17,768 nt of DNA from an uncultured archaeon (GTDB lineage Archaea > Asgardarchaeota > Thorarchaeia > Thorarchaeales > Thorarchaeaceae): the NCBI GenBank assembly GCA_964590575.1, contig CAZPWM010000064.1, positions 1-17,768 of the forward strand, in the 5' to 3' direction. The notes under the pieces were generated by a model. The model searched no databases and was not told where the DNA came from. It was given only the letters and a program-made list of their open reading frames with translations. A program made the position numbers and the translations under genes. Shown in pieces: positions 869 through 13,135 of the stretch (its first letter is position 1; each line of letters begins with the position of its first letter).

Positions 869-3800
869 TTACTTCAAATCGTTTCTCAGTTTCAAGCCTC
901 GCTCATAATACTCTCTTCTCGTTCCCACGCCTAACTTCCACAACTCAACATCATCAGGTATGACCCCAAATGCCTTTTCTACTTCATTCCTCGAGTCTTC
1001 GGGATTGTTATTACCCATTAGTATCTCAGCCTTCAAAACTCTAGCTATAAACAGGTACCACTTTACTTCCTCATCTTCTAAATTCATAGTCACGAGATGT
1101 GAGATATTTTCATCAACTCGTTCTAGTGCCACATCAAATCGCTCTTGTCTGAGATAATACTCCACTAACTGGTTTGCATGGGAGCCCATAGCCTTGAGCT
1201 TACCCTCCTCTCGATATTCCTCAATAAACATAATCAATTCAGCCTCTTTGCGGTCGATACCATCTGCTTCCAGTTCATCGTCATCAAGAATTCCTCTCAA
1301 CATCATACGAAACTCCTCCTTGTTCTCAAGAGTATAATCAGACAATGCTCCCTCATCTAGGACATCAATAACTGAGTCTGTATCATCATCTTCACCTAGT
1401 GTGAACTCCTCTTCATAGATCACAACCTCATTCTCTTCCCAGATACTCAGAGTTATTCTCATCCCTTTTCCAGTTTGTGCAACATCAACTCGACACAGAG
1501 GCTTTTCATCTCCCCATCCATAGGCCTTGAGTTGTTCTCTAATACCATCAAGCTCCTCATCATAGTTGTAGATGTTGTCTCTTGATGCACCAATCATCTT
1601 CAACTCCCCGACCAGTTCTTCTATCATGCCCTCGAGATTTAAGGTTCCATTCAGTTTCATAGTAAATGTCTTTCCCATCCAAGACTGTTTAGTCAGTGTT
1701 GAATTTAGAGTCCAATGAATCATCCCCTTCTTGAACACACTCGATAATATCCACTCTCCCTCTGGGAGTGAGAACTCCTGGTCCTCATGTTCCTCGTCAT
1801 CATAGCTGAGAGCATGAACAAGCCGTGACTCCTCAGCTAATCCTGATGGCAGTCGCACACGTGTTAGTTGACTTACATCGATTTCAAGGGTGAAGTCTTT
1901 TCCAATACTAGCATCAACAAGTTCCTCACATTCAACAAGAAGTTCCAACTCATAGGGGTTCATCCATTCATCCTCAAGTGTCTTCAACTGCGACTTCTTT
2001 GGCAGCCCTTTGAGCTTGACCGTGATGAAGTTGAACTCACCCTTGTTTCGACGAACTTCATCTACCTCTGCCACAAGGGTGATTGTCCCTCCATCCCTTG
2101 TTTGGAGAAGCTCTGCACAAGTCTTGGGAAACAGATTCCCCAGTGAGAAGAGATCAACACGATGAACGAGAGGTGTGAAAAATGAGAGATATATGACATG
2201 CGCCTTTTCTCCACGTCGGTCGACGACAGCAGAATACTCTATGTCTTTCTTATGGTCCCAGAACAGCAGTCCACCATCATCTGTTCTTAGAGGTGTACCC
2301 TTCAAGTATGGGTGCTTCAACAAACCAATGAGCTCATACGTGTTTCTCAGCTCGTAGGAATGTCCTGAGCTGAACTCTACACGATAGCGCTCTGTTTCAA
2401 GGTTAATACTCACTTGGGTTTTCACATCCTCAATCTCTTCCGAACCTTTGAAGGCTCCAAAGAGCAACGAGTCCACATTTGCATCAACCTTGAGAATCTG
2501 CTCAGGTCTGCTTTTCTCCAGTTCCAAGAACAGACTCTCCGGAATTGGTGAGAGTTTAAGCCAACGTAACAGTCGTCCATCATCTCTGCTTGTGGCAAAC
2601 TCAAGAACCACAGGTGCAGTCCATTTGTCCTCTCCCTCAATCTCATCAATGAACCAGAGGATACAGGTTTCACCGATATTCGTAAGAGCTATCTGACTTC
2701 TCGCTGAGGATTCAGTCATAGTCCTAACAGAGGTCCTCAACGTTGATGGGTCAGTTATACATTGATTCCAGCCGAGCTTCAGTCCGTGACCTTCTAGATC
2801 TGATACAAGACCAATGAGTGGTTGGTCTGCATCTGGAAGCACAACCCATGCATTTGGTACTCCTTCCCTCTCCATCCAGATAAGCTGTCCATAAACTACA
2901 TCCTCGGTGGAAATTTGAGGTTGTATGGTATCCCTCAGACACGTTGCGCGGAACATCAGCCTCGAATAGATGAATTGGAAGTCATACTGTGATTGTGCCG
3001 TCTCTTCCGCGTGATCCATTGGCTGAAAACCCATCTGATACAGTTGCCATTCAACCATCGACTCCCATAGGGTTATGACAAGACCTTCAGAGGGTTTGAG
3101 AGAGTGTGTCTTGATGACTGTGAGAAGAGCAAGGAACAGGTTGTTCCCATAGAGTGAGATGATATCAGGACACAGCTCCTTCGCCATCTGCAGTACAGCC
3201 CTGTTGTCAGTTGTAAGGATGTCACCAAGTGTTTCTCTGGAGCCTTCAACCTCACTCCAGATTTGAGCTCTCCATGGATCACGAAGTATGATGTCCCGTA
3301 CTTCTTGAAGGGCAGTGACTAGAGTCTCTTCATCATGAGTGTCTAAGCGTACATCTACACACAGTCTGACTATATCCCGACAACATGAGTAAAGGTTACT
3401 GTTCTTGTGAAGTTGTTTCATGAGGAACTTTGCCGCACTCCTGAGTCGCCTAATCTCTCTCTTACTAGCTGATAAGGTGTTCACCTCATCCAGTCCCGTC
3501 CTTTGATACATTGGGGGCCTTCGAGAAACCCCCACCTCATACTCTTGGTCATTAGAATCAATGGGTATCTTGTCATAATACCATCCTCTCTTGATCTTTG
3601 AGAACTCAATATATTGTTTCTTTGACCTGGGAGGTCGTGGAGGAGGTCTATCGGGAACAAAGTTCATCCTATCAGTGAGCAAGGGAGAGTCATTGGATGT
3701 GACAGCTAGCGAGACGCTCTGCCATTTTTCTTCCGTGGTTTGTTCTTCATGCGTGGATGACATCTCACGCCTTAGAAGACTCGGAACGAGAGTCATTCCA

Positions 3801-6517
3801 ATGTTCTGTAATTGGTTCACAGTCTCCGATGTGAGAGATGTAAGTGATGAGTGAACTTTCTTGAGTGTCACAGAACGACCGTACATTGGCTCGCCCTCGA
3901 AGTCACCCCCATAGACCTCTGCTCCAGGAACTACTCCTTCTCTTCTGGAGAGCCCTCTGTATTTTCGCGCCCACCCCTTCAAGTGTGGTACCCTTATGGG
4001 TTGTATCCATGGAGGTGCTTTTGTTGGAGTGTCTTGAATGATTAGTCTTGTGTCCTCGTTTCTTGGAGTTCGCCAGCCAAAGACCCGAGGAGCAATTGGG
4101 ACATTGTAGATGATCTCATCAATGTGAAACCGTCTGGGGGAGTCGTGACGAAGAGGTCGTACACAAGCTCTCTGATAGTGCTTGTTCATCCTAGTGTGAG
4201 AGACTCCATTGTCGATCCAAATCACATTCACGTTTTGAGAGGGCAGAGTGTCCAGAAGTCGGTCCTCCAAATTTCTTAGAATGTTCATTTTTCTTGGTGA
4301 GGTCATTTCTTTCAGTTGTGCCCACCCATCAACTATGATGATCCTCTCAGAGTCGGTTGTTTCCTTGCTATGAAGTGGCTCTAAGACACTTACGAGTTCA
4401 ACGTCTGTACCAGAGAGAACCGAGTCAATAGTAGCTCGCAAGTTGAGGAAGGTGACATTATCCAAGAGTGCTGTCAGTGTCTTGTGCATCCCTCTCGTAA
4501 TCTGTCTCTTTTTCAGCAAGATGTCAAGACCGAATCTTCTCTTCATGAGATGGTCAGTGGGATAGTCTCCCAAAAAATCTAGCCAATAGACCTGTAGCTT
4601 CTTGTTCGATGGTTGAGAGACCTCCTCGATATGATTCAATAAGTGCCAGTTCCGAGAAACCCATGCTGCAGCATTCCCGAAAGAAGTAGATGAGGGAATC
4701 GAAACATAGTGGGTCAATATTCGATCATCTGACACTCTCTCCTTGAATGGGTCCTCAACGGAGAGTGACAAAACAGGAGATTGCTCCTTGAAGAGTTCAT
4801 CCAAGTTCTCGCCCTCAAGGAGCAGAAGTGCAACTCGTAGAGTGGCACCCTCCTCATCCTTTGAGTCGAAGGTGAGTGTTCTGGATTCGTTCTTACTAAG
4901 CTCGCCAGTGAGAATCCCATTGGTCAGTTCATCCAGAAGAGTGTGGAATGCATCAAAGACCTCTGAGTAATCTTGGTCAGTGTCAAGTACAATGACTCCT
5001 TTCCAGAGGTTCTTTGGAATAGTGACACCAGCAGGGTTTATTCTCTTACTCTCTTCGAGCAATGCTTTCTCATAAGCCTCGAGCTGTGTCAGGACCCGAT
5101 CATCCGGGTCTGATTCTATCGTTCTTCCCCACTCGTCTTCTGATAAAACCCGTTTCCATGCATAGAGTGCTGGGGGCATTTCTTTTTTCTTTCCGGTGTG
5201 GATGGCATAGAGATTGAAGTCAAAAGAGGTCTTCGACTTGACCTCAATGATCATCACTGGTGTCCACAACACAAGCCCCTTGATGTTCCGTCTGATGAAA
5301 AACGTAAGATCTATCCTCCCCTTCTCTCCAAGCCCTGTAACTGGAAGCTCACCAACAATCAGAATTGATGAAGGTTGGTCAAGCATCTTATCTCCTGCAA
5401 AGATGACTGACCTTAACGACTTGGGGTGGTGAAGGTCTGAGAGTAGAATTCTGTGCCAGTCGTTTCCCTCTTTCTGAGAGAGTGCGAGGACTTGGTCAAA
5501 GAGCTTTTCAACATCCCTATCGACAATTCTTCCTTGGTCGATATGGTCTAGTATCTCGGAGTATCTCTCTCTTGTCTTTGCATCATGAGTTTCAGCGATC
5601 AGCTCGCTTACTTTGGCCCATAGGATGTCTACAGTGGGTTCTGGGATGTCTATATCCAGCTCTCTTGTGATGGATTGCCTCTTTCCCACATGGCTGCTAT
5701 ATAGACTACGAATCTCTAGAACTAGCGTTCTCAGCTCTTTGTCAGCATCAGGCTCGAAGTAGTTTCTACCACTCTTTCCCTCAGAATAGACATAGTCCAA
5801 GAACGGAGTGAGTCGATGGATCAACAACCTGATGTATCTATGAGCATCAGAACGTGGAACATTGTGGATGAAACACTGACGGACCAGCTCCACGCTATGG
5901 GCACGAATCATATCAACAAAGTCAAGTCCTGGGAGAGTGGGATGAGTTAGCAACACTGTCGGGAATTTTCTATTTCCTTTGTATCCTGCTTTCCAGTGCG
6001 TTTCATTGGCATCATCATGGGCATACTTGGATACATGCTTCTTCTGGATTGTTGCCTTCGTTCCATCTGAATATTTCCTTATCTGGAATTTCTCTGGCTC
6101 TGGAAAGGGGTATCTCGTCGTAGCAAGGTCTCTCAAACGTGCTCCAAGATAGTTGAGTAAAGCATTTAGTGGTCCAACTGTGCCTTCCTCCCAGCTATAT
6201 ACTCGTTTGAACTCATTGTTTCCAAAACGTCGTGTGCTGTGCCAGAGGATCTTGAGAAAGAATCTTCTCAGGTTTGCCTCTGCGTTCTTAATTGGTGTGA
6301 AATCAAGTCGCGATTTTCCCACGCTTTCTCTTCTTCTCTTTTGTTCTGCTCTAGCCTCGCTCCAGTGTGTCAGAATACTCTCTAGGTACTTGCAAGTCTT
6401 CTTGTCAACCCGTTTCCTTGCAAGTCTGACCAAAGCAGTTAGCCCAGTGTAGATTGATGCTGTTAGGATGGCATTGGGGTTCATCTCTCTAGGCTTGCGG
6501 CCCATTGCAATCAGCAT
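869..6517 (-). CDS. Giant (1882 aa) multidomain protein: basic N-terminal region, RecB/Cas4-type PD-(D/E)XK nuclease, degenerate RecA/KaiC-like P-loop fold, acidic TPR-like C-terminus
   Basis: Uninterrupted 5.6-kb ORF. Motifs E390...GRID403...IIE425VK427S...Q478LEAY482. RecA-like order of elements YVSIPSSTSFGN (no GKT), VYWLD, IIIVD730GW, VIWID. The true start may be ATG 6505 (MGRKPR), given the TATA box at 6534-6541. Confidence 0.85.
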   Translation of the reverse strand: MLIAMGRKPREMNPNAILTASIYTGLTALVRLARKRVDKKTCKYLESILTHWSEARAEQKRRRESVGKSRLDFTPIKNAEANLRRFFLKILWHSTRRFGNNEFKRVYSWEEGTVGPLNALLNYLGARLRDLATTRYPFPEPEKFQIRKYSDGTKATIQKKHVSKYAHDDANETHWKAGYKGNRKFPTVLLTHPTLPGLDFVDMIRAHSVELVRQCFIHNVPRSDAHRYIRLLIHRLTPFLDYVYSEGKSGRNYFEPDADKELRTLVLEIRSLYSSHVGKRQSITRELDIDIPEPTVDILWAKVSELIAETHDAKTRERYSEILDHIDQGRIVDRDVEKLFDQVLALSQKEGNDWHRILLSDLHHPKSLRSVIFAGDKMLDQPSSILIVGELPVTGLGEKGRIDLTFFIRRNIKGLVLWTPVMIIEVKSKTSFDFNLYAIHTGKKKEMPPALYAWKRVLSEDEWGRTIESDPDDRVLTQLEAYEKALLEESKRINPAGVTIPKNLWKGVIVLDTDQDYSEVFDAFHTLLDELTNGILTGELSKNESRTLTFDSKDEEGATLRVALLLLEGENLDELFKEQSPVLSLSVEDPFKERVSDDRILTHYVSIPSSTSFGNAAAWVSRNWHLLNHIEEVSQPSNKKLQVYWLDFLGDYPTDHLMKRRFGLDILLKKRQITRGMHKTLTALLDNVTFLNLRATIDSVLSGTDVELVSVLEPLHSKETTDSERIIIVDGWAQLKEMTSPRKMNILRNLEDRLLDTLPSQNVNVIWIDNGVSHTRMNKHYQRACVRPLRHDSPRRFHIDEIIYNVPIAPRVFGWRTPRNEDTRLIIQDTPTKAPPWIQPIRVPHLKGWARKYRGLSRREGVVPGAEVYGGDFEGEPMYGRSVTLKKVHSSLTSLTSETVNQLQNIGMTLVPSLLRREMSSTHEEQTTEEKWQSVSLAVTSNDSPLLTDRMNFVPDRPPPRPPRSKKQYIEFSKIKRGWYYDKIPIDSNDQEYEVGVSRRPPMYQRTGLDEVNTLSASKREIRRLRSAAKFLMKQLHKNSNLYSCCRDIVRLCVDVRLDTHDEETLVTALQEVRDIILRDPWRAQIWSEVEGSRETLGDILTTDNRAVLQMAKELCPDIISLYGNNLFLALLTVIKTHSLKPSEGLVITLWESMVEWQLYQMGFQPMDHAEETAQSQYDFQFIYSRLMFRATCLRDTIQPQISTEDVVYGQLIWMEREGVPNAWVVLPDADQPLIGLVSDLEGHGLKLGWNQCITDPSTLRTSVRTMTESSARSQIALTNIGETCILWFIDEIEGEDKWTAPVVLEFATSRDDGRLLRWLKLSPIPESLFLELEKSRPEQILKVDANVDSLLFGAFKGSEEIEDVKTQVSINLETERYRVEFSSGHSYELRNTYELIGLLKHPYLKGTPLRTDDGGLLFWDHKKDIEYSAVVDRRGEKAHVIYLSFFTPLVHRVDLFSLGNLFPKTCAELLQTRDGGTITLVAEVDEVRRNKGEFNFITVKLKGLPKKSQLKTLEDEWMNPYELELLVECEELVDASIGKDFTLEIDVSQLTRVRLPSGLAEESRLVHALSYDDEEHEDQEFSLPEGEWILSSVFKKGMIHWTLNSTLTKQSWMGKTFTMKLNGTLNLEGMIEELVGELKMIGASRDNIYNYDEELDGIREQLKAYGWGDEKPLCRVDVAQTGKGMRITLSIWEENEVVIYEEEFTLGEDDDTDSVIDVLDEGALSDYTLENKEEFRMMLRGILDDDELEADGIDRKEAELIMFIEEYREEGKLKAMGSHANQLVEYYLRQERFDVALERVDENISHLVTMNLEDEEVKWYLFIARVLKAEILMGNNNPEDSRNEVEKAFGVIPDDVELWKLGVGTRREYYERGLKLRNDLK

Positions 6518-6533
6518 ACTTTCTTAATATTAA

Positions 6534-6541
6534 TTTATAAA
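6534..6541 (-). promoter_or_regulatory. TATA box of the giant gene
   Basis: TTTATAAA about 30 bp upstream of ATG 6505, the usual spacing for a short-leader archaeal transcript. Confidence 0.55.
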
Positions 6542-6542
6542 G

Positions 6543-6589
6543 AATACGTTTCTAATGGTGAATTGAATAAGGCATATTAGAACCCTATT
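6543..6589. repeat. Imperfect inverted repeat (12/14) in the divergent promoter region, possible operator
   Basis: AATACGTTTCTAAT (6543-6556) and ATTAGAACCCTATT (6576-6589), 19-bp spacer. Confidence 0.5.
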
Positions 6590-6630
6590 TTTAAAATAAA
6601 ATGCTCATAATCCTTTATTATAAGAACGGC

Positions 6631-6645
6631 CTAATAAGTTTATAA
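6631..6645 (+). promoter_or_regulatory. BRE/TATA promoter for the tnpB leader transcript
   Basis: CTAATAAG-TTTATAA, predicting a start site near 6665-6670. Confidence 0.55.
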
Positions 6646-6741
6646 CCTCCGAAATAATAGAAAAGGTAGGAGTTCAAAACCTTCCTGATTGATATGAAAG
6701 GGAGTGAACTCGAAAGAGACAGGTCAGAAGTTTATAACCTC
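6636..6741 (+). repeat. Exact 14-bp direct repeat AAGTTTATAACCTC (6636-6649 and 6728-6741)
   Basis: Read directly from the sequence; 78 bp lie between the copies. Confidence 0.95.
6665..6741 (+). ncRNA. Putative crRNA-like guide unit in the tnpB leader (repeat-like 6702-6727, guide from 6728)
   Basis: 6702-6720 is complementary to 8462-8479. The segment ends in AGGTCAG, resembling archaeal IS200/IS605-type right ends, and is followed immediately by the 14-nt promoter match. Function is inferred. Confidence 0.45.
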
Positions 6742-6752
6742 AGGTGAAACAG

Positions 6753-8504
6753 ATGGGTCGCTCCAAAGGCACAATAATCAGCGTGAAAGTCCCAATACGA
6801 AGGGACTCTATGACTGATAGACAGAAGACTCGACTCTCGCAGATAACTGGAAGGGATACGCGAGTCATCAGGGCGTATCTTGGAGTGATTGAACGTCATG
6901 AAGATGAGTTGTTGACAGGTCACAAAAGAACGAGAATTGATGCTTCGAAACTGGATGAACTCACCCTGACTGCATCCAAAGGTAAGGCAAATAGAAATCA
7001 GGTCCCTCACGATTTCAAGGTTCGATTTCCAAATATATCCGCGAATGAGTTTCAGGAGTGTCGAGACACTGCCATTGCTATGTGGCAGAGTTATCTTGAG
7101 CTGGGCGGTTCCAAACCTTTCCGGATAAAGGGACACTCCACTCGAAAGATTCCACGATTTGCATTTACTCAACGTTTTGAGCTTGTATATAGTCCTGAGC
7201 TCGTAATTCGACACTGGTTGAAACTCAGGGACTCACTTGATTCAGTCAGTGAAGGGCGAGTACGACATGACAAGCTCATGATTCCCCTCTCTATCTCTTC
7301 TTTTCATCTAAATCGGTTGCAAGAGGGAGAGGTTAAGACAGTCCGTATCAACAAGGACTCCAGTCGTAAGTGGTGGGCTATCTTCACGGTGACTCTTTCT
7401 GTTGATAGAATCGATACTGTTGGCAAACCCCCTGCTGTACTGTCCATTGACCTTGGGATAAACAAGGCGGTTTGTTCAGTCCTGCTCACAAGAAAGGGCC
7501 ACAAACAGATTCGCTACTGGAAACAGGAGGACAAGCTTCAGCGGATGAAGGTACTGGATGAGAGGGTTGCGTCACTCCAGCGAGAAAAGGAACATCTCAT
7601 CGCAAAGGGTGGGAATCCCGACAGAGTAACTTTCCAGCTCAGGCGTCTACGTGGAAAACGAGAACGTGTTAGTACGGAATATGACAGGAAGCTTGTGCGA
7701 GATATTTCCGATCACATCATAGAGATGACCGATGTCTATGACCTTTATGTTTCAATAGGTAGGGTGAAAGGAATCAGAAATGCTGCCAGAAAGGGTAATT
7801 GTAGAGGGAGAAGATTCAGAGGGATGATCCATCGCTGGGCTTTTGCAAGGATTCGCGACATGTTGGAACACAGACTCACTTCCCTTGGGTTTGATCCCAA
7901 GAAGTACAACACAGTCCCGGAGCAATGGACCTCTATCATGTGTCACAAGTGTGGACACAAGGGAATACGCCCAAAACAGAACCTCTTCATCTGTACCACC
8001 TGTGGACTGAAGACAAACGCCGACCTGAATGGCGCTTCCAATATTGGGAAGCGCTTTATTATGCTCATCCCTTCACTGAGAGATGAGAACGGACTAGGGA
8101 TGTGGCTCACTCCCAGAGATAGAGCTATACTGAAAGCCCGGAGGAAGACTCGTGCTTCTGATGGGAAGTCCGCACTCCCCCAGGGAACACCAGACCCGAA
8201 GGGGGAGTCCGTGGCCGACTCCTATGACCAGACTTCAATAGTGGAGTTTGCGAGGTGTGAAGACCCTGTCATGGTAAGTGCTGTGGAAACACCGTCTGCT
8301 ATCGCACCAGCTGGTGAGTGTGAGGGAATGCAGCGGACAGAAACCGGGTCCCATCAGAGGAACGATGTTCCAGTGAAGAGGGGCAAAGCTCACGACACTC
8401 TGAAAGATTCCGATCTTTTGGAAGTTGGTGACAGCAGTCGTGAGAAGGGTGGAACGCAGAAGTCTCTTATAGTTCACTCACACTATAAGAAATGGGTTCT
8501 ATAG
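6753..8504 (+). CDS. tnpB: TnpB/Cas12f-like RNA-guided endonuclease with a rearranged (Fanzor-type) RuvC active site and a long C-terminal tail
   Basis: Numbered from the 586-aa ORF: RuvC-I SID236LG, RuvC-II position VSIG339RVKGIR, relocated E393 (VPEQWTSIMC), zinc finger C400/C403/C417/C420, RuvC-III NAD427LNGASNI. ATG 6753 is preferred because AGGTGA (6742-6747) is a canonical archaeal RBS. Confidence 0.92.
   Translation: MGRSKGTIISVKVPIRRDSMTDRQKTRLSQITGRDTRVIRAYLGVIERHEDELLTGHKRTRIDASKLDELTLTASKGKANRNQVPHDFKVRFPNISANEFQECRDTAIAMWQSYLELGGSKPFRIKGHSTRKIPRFAFTQRFELVYSPELVIRHWLKLRDSLDSVSEGRVRHDKLMIPLSISSFHLNRLQEGEVKTVRINKDSSRKWWAIFTVTLSVDRIDTVGKPPAVLSIDLGINKAVCSVLLTRKGHKQIRYWKQEDKLQRMKVLDERVASLQREKEHLIAKGGNPDRVTFQLRRLRGKRERVSTEYDRKLVRDISDHIIEMTDVYDLYVSIGRVKGIRNAARKGNCRGRRFRGMIHRWAFARIRDMLEHRLTSLGFDPKKYNTVPEQWTSIMCHKCGHKGIRPKQNLFICTTCGLKTNADLNGASNIGKRFIMLIPSLRDENGLGMWLTPRDRAILKARRKTRASDGKSALPQGTPDPKGESVADSYDQTSIVEFARCEDPVMVSAVETPSAIAPAGECEGMQRTETGSHQRNDVPVKRGKAHDTLKDSDLLEVGDSSREKGGTQKSLIVHSHYKKWVL
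8155..8500 (+). ncRNA. Putative omega/reRNA (tracr-like) scaffold overlapping the tnpB 3' end
   Basis: Nested stems: 8157-8166/8349-8358 (10 bp), 8168-8173/8333-8338, 8174-8181/8201-8208, 8222-8228/8268-8274, 8229-8250 hairpin, 8359-8371, 8389-8396/8437-8444, 8403-8418, 8465-8473/8482-8490. TnpB RNAs are known to overlap the gene 3' end. Confidence 0.75.
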
Positions 8505-8547
8505 GCTTATCATAGTAGAATCAACATTAGAGGCAGTGAGAGATACG

Positions 8548-9384
8548 ATGTCCACAAAGGTGTCCATACTGGGTGTCTGGCTTATCGAGCGAGGCAGCGG
8601 TAGGAATCTTGTGTCTAGGGCGTACTCTGACGCAGTCAAGCTAGATATGGATTTGATTGCACCATTCCTCTCTGCTACTCACACCTTCATCGATAAAGCT
8701 TCAAATGAAACTCTCAAGACTGTAGACACTGAAACCAACAGATATGTCTGGGAAGCCAACGACCATCTCCTCTTTGTCATGGTCGTTTCCAAAGCGGCAC
8801 GGCTTGGACACATGCGTTTCATTCTCGAATATGCTCTCAATGAATTCATGAACAAAGAGGTTCCTTCTGACTCTGATATTGATACTCTTTTGAAGAACTG
8901 GCATGGAGCTCCTAACACATTCACAAAATTTGGTAAGTTTGTGGATGAGCTAGTAACTCAGTATGAGGCGACTGATGAGAGTCTTGTGGCTGGGAAGTCG
9001 ATGGATTGTCTTGAGGTCTATAGCCATCTTTTCAGAGGAATTATGCGCGTAAAAGGCGGAAAGCAGAAAAAGGAAGCAATTGTCAAACGAATGAAAGGAC
9101 TCACTGAACCACTTATTGATAGATATCCCTATCTTTCTCAGGTTCCAATAGATGCAGCTGGTATCGAGGTTCTTGACATTGACATAGGCAATGTTGCATA
9201 CCAGCATCTTAGAGATTCATTAGAGGAGCTACTGCGACTTCTTGGTAAAGTCGTTCGTGAGGTAGTAACCCCAAAGGCATACCGCGATATGTTGTTCGAT
9301 CATGTAATGCCATATGTGAAACATGATATACAGAGGCTTCAGACATATGCGATTCTTGACGACGTTATTAGATATCTATTCTAA
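8548..9384 (+). CDS. Longin-like domain protein (Asgard eukaryotic-signature type) with a helical C-terminal domain
   Basis: N-terminal pattern ILGVWLIERGSGRNLVSRAY...LIAPFLSATHTF...LKTVDT...RYVW...LLFVMVVS...ILEYALNEF fits the longin beta-beta-alpha-beta-beta-beta-alpha fold. Alternative start GTG 8536. Confidence 0.65.
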   Translation: MSTKVSILGVWLIERGSGRNLVSRAYSDAVKLDMDLIAPFLSATHTFIDKASNETLKTVDTETNRYVWEANDHLLFVMVVSKAARLGHMRFILEYALNEFMNKEVPSDSDIDTLLKNWHGAPNTFTKFGKFVDELVTQYEATDESLVAGKSMDCLEVYSHLFRGIMRVKGGKQKKEAIVKRMKGLTEPLIDRYPYLSQVPIDAAGIEVLDIDIGNVAYQHLRDSLEELLRLLGKVVREVVTPKAYRDMLFDHVMPYVKHDIQRLQTYAILDDVIRYLF

Positions 9385-10725
9385 TTACTTTTCGAGGACA
9401 ATCAGAGATCTTTGAACTACTTGCCCTCTTTTTCTCTCAGGTATCAATTCTCGATCTGGTCTGATTCTAAGACGCGGATGAATATCCCTCTTGTTCAATA
9501 TAGACCTCCCCGGCAACATCCTATACAGTGCCAATCCCGTACCTCTTGTTAAATCTTTGAATTTAATCGATATTGCTTCTCCCTCGGTGTTAATCACAGG
9601 AATTGTCATGGCGACACGACCATCAGGTCTAAGTATGCTCGCAATCTCTGTAAGCACTTGTTGATAGAGGGTAGTAAGCTCTTTGATTGTCTTATCTGCT
9701 TCAGATCGTGAAGGTTTTTTCTTGAATATTGGTCCCAAGATTGGTTCAAAGGCAACAGCATCAACTTGCTTTTTAATAAGTGATGATAACTCTCTTGAGT
9801 CCCCTTTGAAAACATCATAATCGAGTTTCATGCCCAAATCATTTGCAAGCCATTTTAGGTTTGATCTGGTGCCTTGAACCTGATCTCCATCTATGTCCAC
9901 ACCAATGCACTTCATCCCTAAGATGGCTGCTTCCATGAGAAGAGTTCCAGTACCACAGAAAGGATCAAGTATAGTATCCCCCGGTCTTGCTCCGGCGAGG
10001 TTGAGCAACGTTCTACAAATCTTCGGGCTCGTACTAATTTCGGCTGAAACAAAAGGTCTTGACTCATCTCTATATTGCTGTAACATAGAGTCGTAGACAA
10101 TCCGCGTCCTCGCAATGTACAGCTTCCTTTCAGAGAATATTGCTAGAACTTCTGCATTGGGTGTAGCTAACAACGCATTTTGAGCAATGGTCTTGGGCCA
10201 GAGTGCAATATTCAATCGTTCCTCCACTCGTCTATCTGGCTCGTCATAGGCGAAATAATCTGCCCGTTTGGCACCATTTTCTAGTAGGAGTTTCTTAACT
10301 TGGTCGTCCATGCCTCGAGTGAATCTTCTGAAATTAACTGGAGAGCTGCCATCGAAAACTGGATATGTACTGATACCAAACTTGATTTTTTTCCCGTTTG
10401 CTCTTGGCCACACAATCTTAAGCCAAGGACACTTTCGGATTTCTTCAAGAGCCTCTTTGTTTGCAACGCCTTTTGTTGGAAAAGATTTCATTGGTAGGTC
10501 AATGTCGTACTCCCAGATGACTTTGCCAATTTTATAGCAGCCTCCCAGAGCTGATTGCATATCCACAATCTGATCACTATCAAGGCGTTGTTTGATATCG
10601 ACAATTGCAGCATTTCTTGAATGGTCCACAAGGGTTCCATCAAAACCTCGGTCCTGTACGTATGCTAAGAGTTCAGCTATACTGAGTAACCAGTTCGAAC
10701 CGAGCACAAATGCAAGTTTTGTCAT
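9385..10725 (-). CDS. trm11: Trm11/TrmG10-family tRNA guanine-N2 methyltransferase
   Basis: SPKICRTLLNLA, SAM motif ILDPFCGTGTLLMEA, IGVDID, and an N-terminal THUMP-like region. Confidence 0.8.
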   Translation of the reverse strand: MTKLAFVLGSNWLLSIAELLAYVQDRGFDGTLVDHSRNAAIVDIKQRLDSDQIVDMQSALGGCYKIGKVIWEYDIDLPMKSFPTKGVANKEALEEIRKCPWLKIVWPRANGKKIKFGISTYPVFDGSSPVNFRRFTRGMDDQVKKLLLENGAKRADYFAYDEPDRRVEERLNIALWPKTIAQNALLATPNAEVLAIFSERKLYIARTRIVYDSMLQQYRDESRPFVSAEISTSPKICRTLLNLAGARPGDTILDPFCGTGTLLMEAAILGMKCIGVDIDGDQVQGTRSNLKWLANDLGMKLDYDVFKGDSRELSSLIKKQVDAVAFEPILGPIFKKKPSRSEADKTIKELTTLYQQVLTEIASILRPDGRVAMTIPVINTEGEAISIKFKDLTRGTGLALYRMLPGRSILNKRDIHPRLRIRPDRELIPERKRGQVVQRSLIVLEK

Positions 10726-11597
10726 TTACTTTCTTTCTCCAACTCTTCGAAGAGGAACTTGACGTAGAGTGCCCCCTGAAGCGGGTTTGTAGATTCACTT
10801 ATGAACGTAGGCTTGTATCCACATTCACGAACGATTTCTACAAGAGGTAGAATATCTGGGCCCCATTCTTGACCTAGAGGTCGATGGGCGGCTTCTCCTT
10901 TTTCAGTAAATGTAATTCCACTGACATGGAAATGCATGTTATTAACAAATAATTCACCCAACTCATTCTCGAAACGAGTCAATATTTCAAGATATTTCTG
11001 TTTATCATTCACCTCTCCGTGGCTTCTTGCATAGAGATGAGCCCAATCAATGGTTGGTATGCAATCCTCTACATCCTGACACAACTTAATGATTTGATCT
11101 ACAGAACCATATGCGGACAACTTCCCTGCGATCTCGGGAGCCAAAAATACGCCTTTCCTATTGTTTGGAGCTTTTTCCCAGACGCTTCTTAATGCATCTC
11201 TGATGACTGCATGAGCTGCGTCCTTGCTCAATCCCCCTAGATATCCCGGATGAAACACGATGCGTTTCACATTCATCAATGGGGCGAACCTGAGTGCCTT
11301 GACCAACCTATCTTTTGATGATTCTCGTATTCGTGGGGTCTTTGATGCAAGGCTTATGTAATACGCCGCATGTAGACTCATCGTGATTCCTGTTTCTTTT
11401 GCCAGCTCACCAATTTCATGCGCCTTATCCTCTTTGGTCCTCAATCCATGTACAGCTGCATATTCTAGAGCGTTGACTCCCACCTTCGTTAGAATCTGAA
11501 AAACACGTTTCACATTTCCACGTGCCTCGCTTGGATACCCCGCTGGACCAAAGAGAACTTTACTCAGGACTATCGCTCCTCTAACTTGAATTCCCAT
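10722..11597 (-). CDS. nfo: Endonuclease IV / AP-endonuclease family 2 TIM barrel (archaeal type)
   Basis: FGPAG, SLHAAYYISL, IVFHPG, APEIAGK, TIDWAHLYAR, HFHVSGI, ISES. The start is either ATG 11597 (overlapping the upstream gene) or CTG 11567 after AGGAG. Confidence 0.88.
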   Translation of the reverse strand: MGIQVRGAIVLSKVLFGPAGYPSEARGNVKRVFQILTKVGVNALEYAAVHGLRTKEDKAHEIGELAKETGITMSLHAAYYISLASKTPRIRESSKDRLVKALRFAPLMNVKRIVFHPGYLGGLSKDAAHAVIRDALRSVWEKAPNNRKGVFLAPEIAGKLSAYGSVDQIIKLCQDVEDCIPTIDWAHLYARSHGEVNDKQKYLEILTRFENELGELFVNNMHFHVSGITFTEKGEAAHRPLGQEWGPDILPLVEIVRECGYKPTFISESTNPLQGALYVKFLFEELEKESK

Positions 11598-12082
11598 CTA
11601 CAATATGCGTCTTCAGGGTGTTCTCCTGGTGGACAGAAAATACATCGGGTCTGGATACGAGGATCGATGGTTTCTGCAAAGTATCTGTATTCAATCTCTC
11701 CGACCTGTCTACAAGGAAAGTCTGGTAAGCTCTTCCTGTTGCGTGCCACTTGAACACGGCACTCGTTCATTGTGAAGTGCAAAGTATTATCATCCACCCA
11801 CTTGAAAGATTGTTTATTCAATCGTGCATATACGCGATATCCAAGAGCTTGTTCAAGTGATTTAAGGCCGCCATTTGATGGAATATCGAATTCCTTCATG
11901 ATCCGACGTGCTTCTATGGGTGAGAAAATCTTCCATGCTTCCTTGTCCATCTCAATGGCCACATCAATACCATACTTTTTCTCCAGAGCGAGAAAGTATG
12001 CTCCATCCATAGCCTGCCAAGCTTTAGCATATGTATCAATTATCTTCAATAGTTGTTCTCTTGGTAGATCATCAATCATCAC
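11570..12082 (-). CDS. DUF6125-like (V4R-related) Cys-containing protein
   Basis: WQAMDGAYFLALEKKYG, CRVQVAR...FPC, CIFCPP, CRWEF. GGAGG RBS lies just upstream of GTG 12082 / ATG 12079. Confidence 0.7.
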   Translation of the reverse strand: MMIDDLPREQLLKIIDTYAKAWQAMDGAYFLALEKKYGIDVAIEMDKEAWKIFSPIEARRIMKEFDIPSNGGLKSLEQALGYRVYARLNKQSFKWVDDNTLHFTMNECRVQVARNRKSLPDFPCRQVGEIEYRYFAETIDPRIQTRCIFCPPGEHPEDAYCRWEFKLEER

Positions 12083-12193
12083 TCTTCCTCCATAAATCTC
12101 ACAAGAATGACCCAATAAGAGTGATTAGGTCAAACGACTGTTGTCCACAAGTCTTTAATTCAAGATGTTTCTCGAGAGCTTGGTTGGACGGAG

Positions 12194-13135
12194 ATGACTG
12201 AAACCTCGTCTGAAATAAATAATCCTACGCGTTTCCACCCAAAGGCTTTCCTATCAATAATCCGACCGCAGAACTGTGTCATTGGTGGTCTAACTGTTAT
12301 TGCAGGTGTAGCCATGGCCTATCGTATGGCTCAAGTTGGCAGCGGTATCTCTGATTTCCTGCCTCTTTTCATCTACGGCTACGTCACGTACTTCTTCGTA
12401 GCTGCTGGTGGTAATGTTGTAAATGATATTTTTGATGTTGAGGTTGACAAGATTAATCGTCCACATCGTGCTCTACCCAGTGGAAGAATGACAATAAAAC
12501 AAGCATGGGGATATGTGGCATTTCTAAGCATTGTCGGTCTTCTGTTTGCCATTCTTACTGGTCCCTATAGTGCATTGATTGTGTTATGTTTCCAAATCAT
12601 TGGCTACGCTTACGCAGCGAAGGTGAAGACACTTGGGCTTGCAGGTAATTTCATGGTGGCATTCTCATTTGCTTTTGGTGTTCTCTATGGTGCATTTGCC
12701 TATGGCGAAACCATTGGATTACCACTGACAAATGCTATTCCATTACCCCATTGGCTCTTCTTTTTCACAGCCTTCCTTATTCTCCAAGCCCGTGAAACCA
12801 TCAAGGGTGCTGAAGATGTTGAGGGTGATGAAGCTAGAGATGTACGCACCATTGCTAGAATCTACGGTTACAATGTAGCTGCCGCGGTAGCTGCAGCACT
12901 CAACTTCATCGGAGTCCTAAGCTATGTGCTAATTTGGATCTGGGGTTTTGCAAGCTGGAATTTGTGGCCATTGCTCCTGTTGGGTTCAGGTATAGTCACA
13001 GGAGCTGGAATTGCTCCACTCACCAGACCAGACAATAAACGAGCTCTTCTGATTGGAAGTACCCTGGACAAAATTGGTGCACTAGTAGGTTTGATTGCCT
13101 TTGTTATAATTCCATTATATGGACTCCTGATCTAA
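12194..13135 (+). CDS. Digeranylgeranylglyceryl phosphate synthase (UbiA prenyltransferase)
   Basis: IIRPQN, GNVVNDIFDVEVDKINRPHRALPSG, RETIKGAEDVEGD and multiple TM helices. Confidence 0.9.
   Translation: MTETSSEINNPTRFHPKAFLSIIRPQNCVIGGLTVIAGVAMAYRMAQVGSGISDFLPLFIYGYVTYFFVAAGGNVVNDIFDVEVDKINRPHRALPSGRMTIKQAWGYVAFLSIVGLLFAILTGPYSALIVLCFQIIGYAYAAKVKTLGLAGNFMVAFSFAFGVLYGAFAYGETIGLPLTNAIPLPHWLFFFTAFLILQARETIKGAEDVEGDEARDVRTIARIYGYNVAAAVAAALNFIGVLSYVLIWIWGFASWNLWPLLLLGSGIVTGAGIAPLTRPDNKRALLIGSTLDKIGALVGLIAFVIIPLYGLLI

What the first reader, a model, noticed from the sequence alone, without database searches (positions are those of the whole stretch)
6629..6749. Apparent guide RNA in the tnpB leader that matches tnpB's own TATA box
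Seen: AAGTTTATAACCTC occurs at 6636-6649 (covering TTTATAA, preceded by CCTAAT) and again at 6728-6741, immediately after ...GAGACAGGTCAG. Established: TnpB guides begin right after the scaffold end (often ...TCAG/TCAC/TCAA) and need a 5' AT-rich TAM, and short matches often allow binding without cutting. Inference: 6728+ is a guide, (C)TAAT is the TAM, and the RNP represses its own promoter. The match stops right at the RBS (AGGTGA), so RNP loading could also block translation.
Basis: partly seen in the sequence, partly recalled or inferred. Interest (0 to 1): 0.9.

Follow-up and report, generated by a model that had tools for sequence, protein, structure and literature searches.

The report
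TnpB leader guide matching own promoter
An archaeal TnpB gene carries a small structured RNA in its leader, followed by about 12 bases that copy the TATA-box region of its own promoter, and this pairing is kept in dozens of diverged relatives, so the nuclease probably uses it to switch itself off.

Summary
AAGTTTATAACCTC occurs at 6636-6649 and at 6728-6741.

I examined 69 homologous loci from one archaeal family; names on near-identical proteins suggest Thorarchaeota.
- In 52 of 69 loci, an exact repeat of 12 nt or more links the promoter zone to the leader. Among cross-locus pairings, 39 of 4692 reach that length.
- The repeat sequence differs between loci. It always starts right after a conserved CTT[A/C]AT motif upstream, and right after a conserved structured leader element ending ...ACAGGTC(AG/GG).
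- Within a locus, positions 1-12 are 95-100% identical. Identity falls to background by position 16.
- The same scaffold-end motif marks the usual 3' end of the gene in 14 of 23 loci.
- In its own genome, each guide's only exact target is its own promoter.
- More distant relatives (36-39% identity) lack the leader element in 0 of 20 loci.

Best reading: a second, 5' mini guide RNA directs TnpB onto its own TATA box, giving negative feedback without cutting. No RNA ends, binding or repression were measured. Six literature searches found no such case for TnpB. A conserved, divergently transcribed 1882-aa orphan gene is a regular partner.

The parts
6630..6635 (+). TAM-like motif CCTAAT directly 5' of the promoter copy. 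The family consensus is CTT[A/C]AT. It may double as a BRE.
   Evidence: One search gives the sequence. (n=60 loci): C44, T50, T60, A42/C14, A57, T59 at -6..-1. TTAAT in 26, TTCAT in 12, ATAAT in 4 and CTAAT in 1 of 57 loci.
6636..6649 (+). Promoter copy (putative DNA target). It holds the TATA box TTTATAA at 6639-6645.
   Evidence: The TATA-like core TTTAWAW at positions 4-10 is kept in the family. The conserved leader starts 28 nt after the first T of the TATA box, the usual archaeal geometry (recalled knowledge, inference).
6650..6666 (+). Unconserved spacer between the target and the predicted transcription start.
   Evidence: alignment; information content near 0-0.5 bit at positions 11-33.
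6667..6727 (+). Leader mini-scaffold (61 nt). P1 is GAGUUCA/UGAACUC, P2 is a variable hairpin, and the scaffold ends GACAGGUCAG. Most relatives also have a terminal hairpin P3 (CUGACC..GGUCAG), whose 5' strand is missing here.
   Evidence: DNA similarity to paralogues starts at 6667-6675. Folds. Pair counts: (83.8% of cells paired, against 32-47% when slid). Model R1 hits 6667-6727 at E=1.2e-8.
6728..6741 (+). Putative guide, identical to 6636-6649.
   Evidence: It starts exactly at the scaffold end in 60 anchored loci.
6742..6747 (+). Shine-Dalgarno-like AGGTGA, directly after the guide and 5 nt before the ATG.
   Evidence: Purine-rich AGGTGA/AGGCGA follows the guide in the relatives printed.
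6753..8504 (+). tnpB-like gene, 583 aa. It has RuvC-I D233, Gly336 at the canonical RuvC-II Glu position, a zinc finger C397/C400/C414/C417, and RuvC-III D424 (NADLN).
   Evidence: Pfam PF07282, 48.2 bits against a cut-off of 26.3. NCBIfam NF040570, 98 bits against a cut-off of 100. PDB relatives Cas12f/TnpB. Invariant residues in 24 of 24 aligned homologues.
8094..8500 (+). Probable canonical 3' omegaRNA scaffold overlapping the end of the ORF. It contains GTTCACTCA (8472-8480) and ends ATGGGTTCT (8492-8500), a diverged form of ACAGGTCNN.
   Evidence: Similarity to paralogues stops at 8480-8501. 3' ends of relatives. RNA-library contigs cover 8094/8096-8392 in 4 of 4 runs laid. Fold z-score -2.28.
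8501..8516 (+). Sequence after the 3' scaffold (the canonical guide position), ATAGGCTTATCATAGT.
   Evidence: No other match with 2 mismatches or fewer that sits next to a motif was found in the own genome.
869..6517 (-). Divergently transcribed 1882-aa orphan gene, a conserved neighbour of this tnpB clade.
   Evidence: No Pfam or NCBIfam hit. Homologues lie divergently upstream in 19 of 31 loci. The C64/C2 duplication spans window 883-8501.

Best explanation
The tnpB-like gene is transcribed from the TATA box at 6639-6645. Its mRNA begins, at about 6667-6670, with a 61-nt structured element. This element acts as a second, miniature omegaRNA scaffold and ends ...GACAGGUCAG. The next 12-14 nt (6728-6741) serve as a guide.

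TnpB made from the same mRNA loads this leader. It then finds the only site in the genome where the CTT[A/C]AT-type motif is followed by the matching 12-14 nt. That site is its own promoter, where the match covers the TATA box. Binding there keeps TBP/TFB off the promoter and lowers transcription, so the gene limits its own level. Complementarity is held at about 12 nt and fades by 16 nt, so the site is probably bound and not cut. Because the guide abuts the Shine-Dalgarno sequence, loading may also hinder translation or lead to processing of the mRNA.

Shown: the repeat, its covariation, its sharp anchoring at both motifs, the conserved fold of the leader, and the uniqueness of the target.

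Inferred: the transcription start, RNA loading, DNA binding, repression, and absence of cleavage.
For: (1) Covariation. In 69 homologous loci with at least 170 nt upstream, 52 have an exact repeat of 12 nt or more between leader zone and promoter zone, and 57 have 10 nt or more. Only 39 of 4692 cross-locus pairs reach 12 nt. The set is 31 loci returned, plus 40 that I picked from its list, minus 2 that were too short.

(2) Anchored profile in 60 loci. Identity within a locus is 95-100% at positions 1-12, then 72%, 52% and 37% at positions 13-15, and background from 16. At the variable positions 3, 11 and 12, within-locus identity is 97-98% against 26-33% between loci. The 57 loci show 28 distinct first-10-mers.

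(3) Apparent intermediates. L030, L011, L056, L065, L073 and L079 each have one internal mismatch with matching bases after it.

(4) The syntenic copies C64, C2 and L020 changed TATAAC to TAAATC in both places.

(5) The repeat begins exactly after CTT[A/C]AT upstream and exactly after GGTCAG or GGTCGG in the leader (45 of 57 loci). The leader copy therefore lacks the motif, which would spare the guide-encoding DNA.

(6) The leader's last 9 nt recur, with 2 mismatches or fewer, at the stop codon, where similarity between paralogues ends. This holds in 14 of 23 loci, against a chance rate of about 0.15 per region.

(7) Leader structure. 83.8% of cells are paired, against 32-47% when slid. Six of 7 P2 pairs show changes on both sides.

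(8) Model R1 hits only the 5 tnpB leaders in the own genome.

(9) The guide 12-mers of 4 paralogues hit only their own promoter and their own leader.

(10) Relatives at 36-39% identity in another family lack the element in 0 of 20 loci.

(11) In a different TnpB (ISDge10), a 10-nt guide gives binding without cutting and a 20-nt guide gives cutting (PMC13507860, passages read).
Against: There is no RNA evidence for the leader. The four RNA libraries laid gave no contig over 6624-6785. They are assembled contigs, so this says little either way.

The leader scaffold is only 61 nt, while the canonical 3' scaffold seems to be up to about 400 nt. The leader alone may not load TnpB.

In this window the leader lacks the 5' strand of hairpin P3, and its own 3' scaffold end (ATGGGTTCT) differs from the leader end (ACAGGTCAG).

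The CTT[A/C]AT motif sits where a BRE would sit, so its conservation does not prove that it is a TAM.

Positions 1-10 are partly conserved between loci because they hold a TATA box, so only positions 3, 8 and 10-15 carry covariation signal.

The RuvC site may be active: D233 and D424 are kept, Gly stands at the RuvC-II position, and E390 is invariant. Cutting is therefore not excluded.

The loci are relatives of one another, not independent samples.

Nine of 69 loci keep the scaffold but have no promoter copy: L010, L024, L027, L031, L044, L046, L080, L084 and L091.
Confidence: 0.66

Rival explanations
1. The recognition is the same, but the purpose differs. The leader-guided TnpB recognises, and perhaps cuts, the junction between the motif and the left edge of its own unit. 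This would drive recombination, copying or mobility of the unit, or mark occupied sites. Control of transcription would not be the purpose.
For: The RuvC-I and RuvC-III aspartates and the zinc finger are invariant. The Gly at RuvC-II resembles the 'rearranged but probably active' clades described in PMC10691335. The family has up to 15 or more copies per genome. The stretch just past the target, where TnpB enzymes cut (recalled), is unconserved and varies in length; the copy-to-copy spacing is 92-105 nt.
Against: The target always contains the TATA box at promoter distance from the conserved leader start. Complementarity is capped near 12-15 nt, whereas a cutting guide would gain from a longer match. 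Copies within a genome are old (47-81% identity) with no near-identical pairs. No Y1 transposase or Cas1 was found in the own assembly. The C64/C2 duplication includes the giant gene and has no matching motif at its left edge.
Confidence: 0.13
2. The signal is at DNA level only. The two copies would be two binding sites (operators or two TBP/TFB sites) for a protein, or a duplicated promoter. They would be kept alike by concerted evolution, with no guide RNA involved.
For: Both copies hold a TATA-like core. They lie 92-105 nt apart, which would suit looping. No RNA data exist for the leader.
Against: A protein operator would be conserved between loci, not variable between loci and identical within each one (positions 3, 11, 12). 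Gene conversion over a 12-nt tract with the same sharp edges in 60 loci is implausible. The second copy lies 21 nt or less before the ATG, so it cannot serve as a TATA box for the conserved N-terminus. The left edge of the leader copy coincides with the motif that also ends the 3' scaffold.
Confidence: 0.07
3. Relic of an insertion. Positions 6650-6727 would be a small mobile or duplicated piece that arrived with a 12-16-bp target-site duplication, and the repeat would have no function.
For: A direct repeat flanking a 78-bp segment has the classic look of an insertion. Outgroup relatives have the TATA box close to the start codon and no scaffold, so the segment was gained once.
Against: The gain is old. 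Scaffolds have diverged along with the gene, and the adjoining 17-25 nt spacer is randomised, yet the repeat stays 95-100% identical within loci. Syntenic paralogues changed both copies in parallel. There are no terminal inverted repeats. No free-standing copies occur elsewhere in the genome.
Confidence: 0.03
4. RNA-RNA regulation. The leader stretch would pair with an antisense or promoter-associated transcript, or the leader core GAGUGAAC would pair with GUUCACUC at the 3' end of the same mRNA. DNA targeting would be incidental.
For: The leader core is the reverse complement of the 3' motif at 8472-8480. An inverted match of 8 nt or more occurs in 22 of 27 loci and reaches 16 nt in L040.
Against: That inverted match is a motif conserved between loci (cross-locus median 8 nt), and it does not involve the 12-nt repeat. 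The two repeat copies are direct, so they cannot pair with each other. The promoter copy lies upstream of the predicted start, so it is not in the mRNA.
Confidence: 0.05

Closest known systems
Cas9 autoregulation by the long-form tracrRNA (Workman et al.; bioRxiv 10.1101/2020.05.21.102756, abstract read; described in PMC10705468, passage read, as truncated guides that bind but do not cleave the cas9 promoter)
   Same: A nuclease-competent RNA-guided enzyme is aimed by a natural, locus-encoded RNA with short complementarity at its own promoter, giving negative feedback.
   Different: That is a type II CRISPR system in bacteria, with a separate tracrRNA gene. Here the enzyme is a TnpB-family protein in an Asgard archaeon, the guide lies in the 5' leader of the enzyme's own mRNA, the target is a TATA box, and nothing has been tested.
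CreR, Cas-regulating RNAs from degenerate mini-CRISPRs of type I-B, I-E and V-A (bioRxiv 10.1101/2023.03.10.532045; only the search listing and the start of the abstract were seen)
   Same: A repeat-like scaffold plus a partially matching guide represses the effector's own promoter. Type V-A effectors descend from TnpB.
   Different: CreR is a stand-alone mini-array beside cas genes. There is no CRISPR array or repeat here (none seen), and the element is part of the mRNA leader.
TldR, TnpB-like nuclease-dead repressors (PMC10705468, passages read)
   Same: A TnpB-derived protein uses a guide and a TAM to sit on a promoter. Some use guides of only 9-11 nt. There is no transposase nearby, and there is a conserved non-transposon neighbour gene.
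   Different: TldRs have two or more catalytic residues lost or a truncated C-terminus. Their guide is at the 3' end, and they repress other genes (fliC, oppA). Here D233, D424 and the zinc finger are invariant, the guide in question is 5', and the target is the gene's own promoter.
Canonical IS200/IS605 TnpB-omegaRNA (PMC8612924 seen in listing only; architecture as summarised in PMC10705468, and PMC10691335)
   Same: The protein family is the same. The scaffold overlaps the 3' end of the ORF and conservation stops at a sharp scaffold/guide boundary. The motif 5' of the target resembles known TAMs such as TTGAT (recalled).
   Different: Canonical elements have one guide, at the right end, derived from flanking DNA and used against empty sites. 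PMC10691335 states that omegaRNA lies downstream of tnpB, in contrast to IscB. Here a second scaffold and guide sit upstream of the ORF and target the element's own promoter.
Arc repressor of IS605 promoters (bioRxiv 10.64898/2026.09.24.754181, abstract read) and TnpB processing of its own mRNA (PMC10278001, listing only)
   Same: Both are ways in which TnpB-bearing elements hold their own expression down.
   Different: Arc is a protein repressor. The mRNA-processing route acts after transcription, at the 3' omegaRNA. Neither uses a guide against the promoter.

Membership tests
TnpB / Cas12f1-like RNA-guided nuclease family | Profile match to the family's TNB/zinc-ribbon and RuvC region | tested here: met
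   PF07282 scores 48.2 bits against a cut-off of 26.3. PF01385 scores 21.2, below its cut-off of 30.5. NF040570 scores 98 bits, just under its cut-off of 100. PDB sequence hits to Cas12f and TnpB chains have E values from 1e-7 to 1e-5.
TnpB / Cas12f1-like RNA-guided nuclease family | RuvC D-E-D catalytic triad | tested here: inconclusive
   D233 (IDLG) and D424 (NADLN) are invariant in 24 of 24 homologues. The canonical Glu position holds an invariant Gly336. An invariant E390 (PExWTS) might substitute, as proposed for the RIIr clades in PMC10691335. No structure was computed and no distances were measured.
TnpB / Cas12f1-like RNA-guided nuclease family | CxxC...CxxC zinc finger between RuvC-II and RuvC-III | tested here: met
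   C397, C400, C414 and C417 are invariant.
TnpB / Cas12f1-like RNA-guided nuclease family | omegaRNA scaffold overlapping the 3' end of the ORF, with a sharp boundary to variable sequence | tested here: met
   Similarity between paralogues ends at 8480-8501. A conserved GGTGGAAC...GTTCACTCA...ACAGGTCNN block lies at the stop codon in relatives. RNA-library contigs cover 8094-8392.
IS200/IS605 or IS607 transposon (mobile element) | Associated TnpA (Y1 or serine) transposase, or recent identical copies | tested here: not met
   No PF01797 hit in the own assembly, which is 91% complete. Paralogues are 47-81% identical with none near-identical. A serine recombinase was not searched for.
TldR (nuclease-dead TnpB-like repressors) | Two or more catalytic residues lost, or the C-terminal RuvC/ZnF truncated | tested here: not met
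   Only the RuvC-II position differs. The zinc finger and RuvC-III are intact. The definition is taken from PMC10705468.
TldR (nuclease-dead TnpB-like repressors) | Guide matches a TAM-flanked site that overlaps a promoter | tested here: met
   A match of 12 nt or more over the TATA box next to CTT[A/C]AT is found in 52 of 69 loci. However, the promoter is the gene's own and the guide is 5' of the gene.
Natural self-repressing guide (Cas9 tracr-L / CreR type): works-like comparison | Locus-encoded scaffold plus a short guide complementary to the effector's own promoter, conserved through covariation | tested here: met
   Repression itself is not testable with these tools.
MITE-like insertion with target-site duplication | Terminal inverted repeats, many dispersed copies, and repeats that decay neutrally | tested here: not met
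   No inverted repeats at 6650/6727. Model R1 finds only the five tnpB leaders. The repeats covary while the neighbouring spacer has decayed.
Rfam RNA families | Match at gathering score | tested here: not met
   0 matches in the whole window.

The most novel reading that the evidence does not exclude
This clade of Asgard (probably Thorarchaeota) TnpB proteins would be natural two-guide enzymes. A canonical 3' omegaRNA handles outside targets. A 61-nt mini-scaffold in the 5' UTR, with a guide held at about 12 nt, parks the same, possibly still active, nuclease on its own TATA box. That would be the first RNA-guided transcriptional feedback loop described for TnpB and for archaeal TBP/TFB promoters. 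It would also be a naturally minimised guide scaffold. The whole sits in a conserved two-gene module with a 1882-aa protein of unknown function, which may be an undescribed RNA-guided system.
Probability: 0.55. Interest if true: 0.9.

Novelty: new variant of a known kind. Interest (0 to 1): 0.82.

Why it matters
If true, three things follow.

First, TnpB-family enzymes can carry a second guide RNA upstream of the gene. Surveys that look only downstream of tnpB would miss it.

Second, self-repression through a short guide would have arisen independently in a transposon-type nuclease of Asgard archaea. That would put it alongside Cas9 tracr-L and CreR as a general solution for keeping RNA-guided nucleases in check. 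It would also give a natural example of RNA-guided blocking of an archaeal TATA box.

Third, there are practical points. A 61-nt scaffold and a sharply defined 12-nt match are candidate design rules for compact repressors. The 28 or more natural guide/target pairs form a ready-made set of compensatory variants for testing.

The conserved link with a giant orphan protein points to a larger unknown module.

Tried and rejected
RNAalifold on a mixed MAFFT alignment of 29 leaders gave no structure. Two scaffold subtypes were misaligned, so I used single folds and a hand-written structure on 45 type-A leaders.

RNA evidence for the leader was not obtained. Eighteen metatranscriptome runs hold only 5-17% of the sampled words. 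Laying four of them gave no contig over 6624-6785. They are contigs, so this is neither support nor refutation.

The window's 3' guide region has no other anchored match in the window or the genome.

The left edge of the C64/C2 duplication (around window 870-885) shows no TT[A/C]AT motif, so I could not define a canonical transposon left end.

The giant protein gave nothing in Pfam at E up to 5, in NCBIfam, or in the ESM Atlas.

The sigma-70 promoter and terminator scan found nothing and does not apply to archaea.

The idea that the in-frame TGA seen in many homologues means recoding was dropped. In those copies the ORF simply stops earlier and the scaffold continues past the stop.

Locus-specific pairing between the leader core and the 3' GTTCACTC motif was not supported beyond a motif conserved between loci.

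No structure prediction or complex prediction was run.

Supplementary files of PMC10691335 may list RNA boundaries for Asgard TnpB clades, and I could not see them. The claim that this is not in print rests on the six searches.
Full report
**Observation**

The 14-mer AAGTTTATAACCTC is at 6636-6649 and again at 6728-6741. The first copy follows CCTAAT and contains TTTATAA (6639-6645). The second follows ...GAGACAGGTCAG and is followed by AGGTGA (6742-6747) and ATG (6753). It is the only exact direct repeat of 12 nt or more in 6000-9500 (family D6). In the own assembly the 12-mer core occurs exactly only at these two places. The 18-mer with its TAAT flank has a single exact hit.

**The gene**

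ORF 6753-8504 (583 aa) is a TnpB/Cas12f-like protein.
- PF07282 scores 48.2 bits against a cut-off of 26.3.
- NF040570 scores 98 bits against a cut-off of 100.
- PDB sequence hits go to Cas12f and TnpB chains.
- In an alignment of 24 homologues (54-100% identical), D233 (IDLG), the four zinc-finger cysteines and D424 (NADLN) are invariant. The canonical RuvC-II Glu position is an invariant Gly336, and E390 is invariant.
- This pattern, Gly at RuvC-II with a NADXN motif, is what PMC10691335 describes for catalytically 'rearranged', probably active clades (passages read). I did not test whether E390 completes the site.
- Names on 80-82% identical proteins point to Candidatus Thorarchaeota.

**Own-genome paralogues**

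The assembly (194 contigs; the window is C64) holds further copies on C2 (79% DNA identity), C111 (82%, one in-frame TAA), C11 (67%), C141 (cut by the contig end), and fragments.
- DNA similarity to C111, C11 and C141 starts at window 6667-6675. It ends at 8480-8501, which is at the stop codon.
- Aligning the five upstream regions gave the key result. A conserved leader (TAGGAGTTCA...GGGAGTGAACTC...ACAGGTCAG) is followed by 12-15 nt that differ between paralogues. In four of five paralogues these bases equal a stretch about 92-96 nt upstream in the same locus, right after TAAT or TGAT.
- The pairs are: C64 AAGTTTATAACCTC; C2 AAGTTTAAATCC; C11 AACCTTAAATTCAA; C141 AAATTTATTAGG.
- C111, the copy with the stop codon, has the leader but no promoter copy.

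**Family-wide test**

The protein has matches at E<=1e-30 in 55 of 86 genomes of the same family (14 of 16 genera), often in many copies. I read the upstream DNA of the 31 loci returned. I also read 40 further loci that I chose from that list: matches starting at residue 1-4, lower in the ranking, on different contigs. These 40 are not a random sample.
- Two loci had too little upstream DNA, leaving 69 (the window itself is one of them).
- The longest exact repeat between the leader zone (-48..-1) and the promoter zone (-175..-85) is 12 nt or more in 52 of 69 loci and 10 nt or more in 57 of 69, with a median of 13.
- Pairing the leader of one locus with the promoter of another gives 12 nt or more in 39 of 4692 pairs, with a median of 6.
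- The nine loci without a match (L010, L024, L027, L031, L044, L046, L080, L084, L091) have upstream DNA that does not look like a promoter. In L084 it is the end of a tRNA gene.
- Sixty loci could be anchored at the scaffold end. Identity between the two copies is 95-100% at positions 1-12, then 72%, 52% and 37% at positions 13, 14 and 15, and background (13-38%) from position 16.
- Positions 4-10 are a TATA-like core shared by all loci. At the variable positions 3, 11 and 12, within-locus identity is 98%, 97% and 98%, against 33%, 26% and 26% between loci.
- The 57 matched loci show 28 distinct first-10-mers, and the spacing between copies is 92-105 nt.
- Several loci look like intermediates of compensatory change: one internal mismatch followed by further matches (L030, L011, L056, L065, L073, L079).
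- The syntenic copies C64, C2 and L020 share upstream context and the giant neighbour gene. They differ at the same two positions in both copies.

**Flanking motifs**

The promoter copy is preceded by CTT[A/C]AT. Counts at -6 to -1 are C 44, T 50, T 60, A 42/C 14, A 57 and T 59 of 60. The window's CTAAT is a rare variant. The leader copy is preceded by GGTCAG (30) or GGTCGG (15) of 57, so the guide-encoding DNA lacks the motif. The motif resembles known TnpB TAMs (recalled: TTGAT for ISDra2). It also lies where a BRE would lie, and I cannot separate the two readings.

**The leader is a structured, gene-linked element**

- Single folds of 29 leaders show the same plan. P1 is GAGUUCA/UGAACUC. 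P2 is a hairpin of variable sequence. In most loci a terminal hairpin P3 (CUGACC-loop-GGUCAG) sits directly before the guide.
- In the window's subtype the 5' strand of P3 is absent.
- On 45 type-A leaders, a hand-written structure has 83.8% of cells paired, against 32-47% when the partners are slid. Six of 7 P2 pairs show changes on both sides. P1 is almost invariant and therefore uninformative.
- A covariance model built from this alignment hits exactly the five tnpB leaders in the own genome and nothing else.

**The scaffold/guide boundary is corroborated at the 3' end**

The 3' ends of the homologues carry a conserved block...GGTGGAACACAGAAGT...GTTCACTCA...(A)ACAGGTC(GG/TT/GT). It lies at or just after the stop codon, after which similarity ends.
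- The last 9 nt of the leader scaffold recur there, with 2 mismatches or fewer, in 14 of 23 loci that have complete 3' ends. Chance would give about 0.15 hits per region.
- In the window's subgroup the 3' form has diverged (ATGGGTTCT, 8492-8500).
- The gene therefore has the usual 3' omegaRNA arrangement and, in addition, a second, shorter scaffold with its own guide in the leader.
- PMC10691335 states that omegaRNA and CRISPR arrays lie downstream of tnpB/cas12, in contrast to IscB.

**Outgroup**

Relatives at 36-39% identity in another family of the phylum (about 500 aa) have a TATA box close to the start codon. None of 20 loci has the scaffold or the repeat. The leader element is therefore a derived feature of this clade.

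**Mechanism proposed**

- The TATA box starts 28 nt before the conserved leader start at 6667. This fits an archaeal promoter whose transcript begins with the scaffold (inference; no TSS data).
- The simplest reading of a sharply bounded, covarying 12-nt match is base pairing of the leader RNA with the promoter DNA inside a TnpB complex. The match lies next to a TAM-like motif on one side and next to the family's scaffold end on the other.
- Sitting on the TATA box should block TBP/TFB, so the gene would repress itself.
- The cap at about 12-15 nt fits binding without cutting. For ISDge10 TnpB, a 10-nt guide binds without breaks and 20 nt cuts (PMC13507860). Some TldRs use 9-11-nt guides (PMC10705468).
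It is untested.

**Rivals**

- A neutral insertion with a target-site duplication is excluded by the covariation, by the decay of the adjacent spacer, by the lack of inverted repeats and by the lack of dispersed copies.
- A protein operator or a duplicated promoter does not explain identity within loci combined with variability between loci.
- The live alternative is that the same recognition serves cutting or recombination at the unit's edge, since the nuclease may be active.
- Against mobility: no Y1 transposase or Cas1 was found in the own assembly, the copies are old, and the duplicated unit C64/C2 spans window 883-8501, including the giant gene.

**Context**

- The 1882-aa ORF at 869-6517 (minus strand) has no Pfam, NCBIfam or Atlas match.
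- Homologues (27-83% identity over the first 600 aa or less) lie divergently upstream of the tnpB homologue in 19 of 31 loci. Several of the remaining loci are cut by contig ends. The two genes form a conserved module.

**RNA data**

Eighteen metatranscriptome runs from 17 studies hold small parts of 6300-8700. In the four runs laid, 100%-identical contigs cover 8094/8096 to 8320-8392, and one run also covers 6981-7212. This is a weak hint of an abundant RNA from the 3' scaffold region. The region 8094-8498 folds with z = -2.28. Nothing covers the leader.

**Literature**

Six full-text searches found no report of a TnpB guide in the 5' leader or of TnpB targeting its own promoter. The nearest cases are:
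- Cas9 tracr-L (abstract);
- CreR (listing only);
- TldR (passages);
- the Arc protein repressor of IS605 promoters (abstract);
- TnpB processing of its own mRNA (listing only).

PMC10691335 mentions, for Asgard aCas1-linked TnpBs, a hypervariable region next to a conserved GTTCACTCA downstream of tnpB. The same 9-mer is at 8472-8480 here. Its supplement could not be read.

**Verdict**

I rate it a new variant of a known kind (self-repression by a short natural guide) in a new enzyme family, domain of life and RNA arrangement.

Noticed in passing
window 869-6517 (-): A 1882-aa ORF with no Pfam, NCBIfam or ESM-Atlas match is transcribed divergently from the tnpB-like gene. Homologues sit in the same position in 19 of 31 related loci (27-83% identity), so it is a conserved two-gene module of unknown function.
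   Followed up: partly
window 8094-8392: Contigs from four RNA libraries of four studies, 100% identical, all start at 8094-8096 and end at 8320-8392, inside the 3' part of the ORF. This may be an abundant 5' part of the 3' omegaRNA, or it may reflect assembly break points.
   Followed up: partly
window 8472-8480 and 6704-6714: GTTCACTCA near the stop codon is the motif reported beside a hypervariable region in Asgard aCas1-TnpB loci (PMC10691335). It is the reverse complement of the leader core GAGTGAAC. The inverted match reaches 16 nt in L040, but it is mostly a motif conserved between loci. Its meaning is unexplained.
   Followed up: partly
loci L093, L094, L100-L102, L107, L108, L112 (3' flanks) and L095, L097, L103, L104, L106, L109, L111: In one subgroup, the sequence after the 3' scaffold is nearly constant (TGCATGCAGCCGA...). 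The same 13-17 nt occur inside a conserved gene whose translation, by recalled similarity only and not by any search, resembles an MvhD-like iron-sulfur protein (CxxC region). There it is preceded by TGCAT or TGCAC. In four genomes this gene lies 170-260 nt downstream of the tnpB homologue. This may be a fixed guide against a host gene or a preferred insertion site.
   Followed up: partly
window 7758 (Gly336 codon region); alignment A2: The canonical RuvC-II glutamate is an invariant glycine, while both aspartates, the zinc finger and a glutamate at 390 are invariant. It is open whether the nuclease is active.
   Followed up: partly
loci L030, L032-L036: In some subfamilies the ORF stops about 50 nt before the scaffold end. 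In others, including the window, it reads on to the scaffold end. This explains the single in-frame TGA reported by the genome search. The C-terminal tail of the protein is therefore shaped by the RNA.
   Followed up: yes
locus L084: One homologue keeps the leader scaffold and a TATA-like guide but lies directly after the 3' end of a tRNA gene, and it has no promoter copy.
   Followed up: no
window 6578-6593 and 8486-8501: A 16-nt inverted repeat (81% complementary) brackets the promoter-to-stop unit (pair I6). I did not check it in the relatives.
   Followed up: no
G000 contig C111 7493-9317: This paralogue has one in-frame TAA, a weak leader match (E=0.013) and no promoter copy anywhere in the assembly. 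It is probably a decaying copy.
   Followed up: partly
window 9385-13135: Neighbouring genes look ordinary: an RMKL-like/N6_N4 DNA methyltransferase (9385-10725, -), an AP_endonuc_2 TIM-barrel protein (10722-11597, -) and a UbiA prenyltransferase (12194-13135, +).
   Followed up: no
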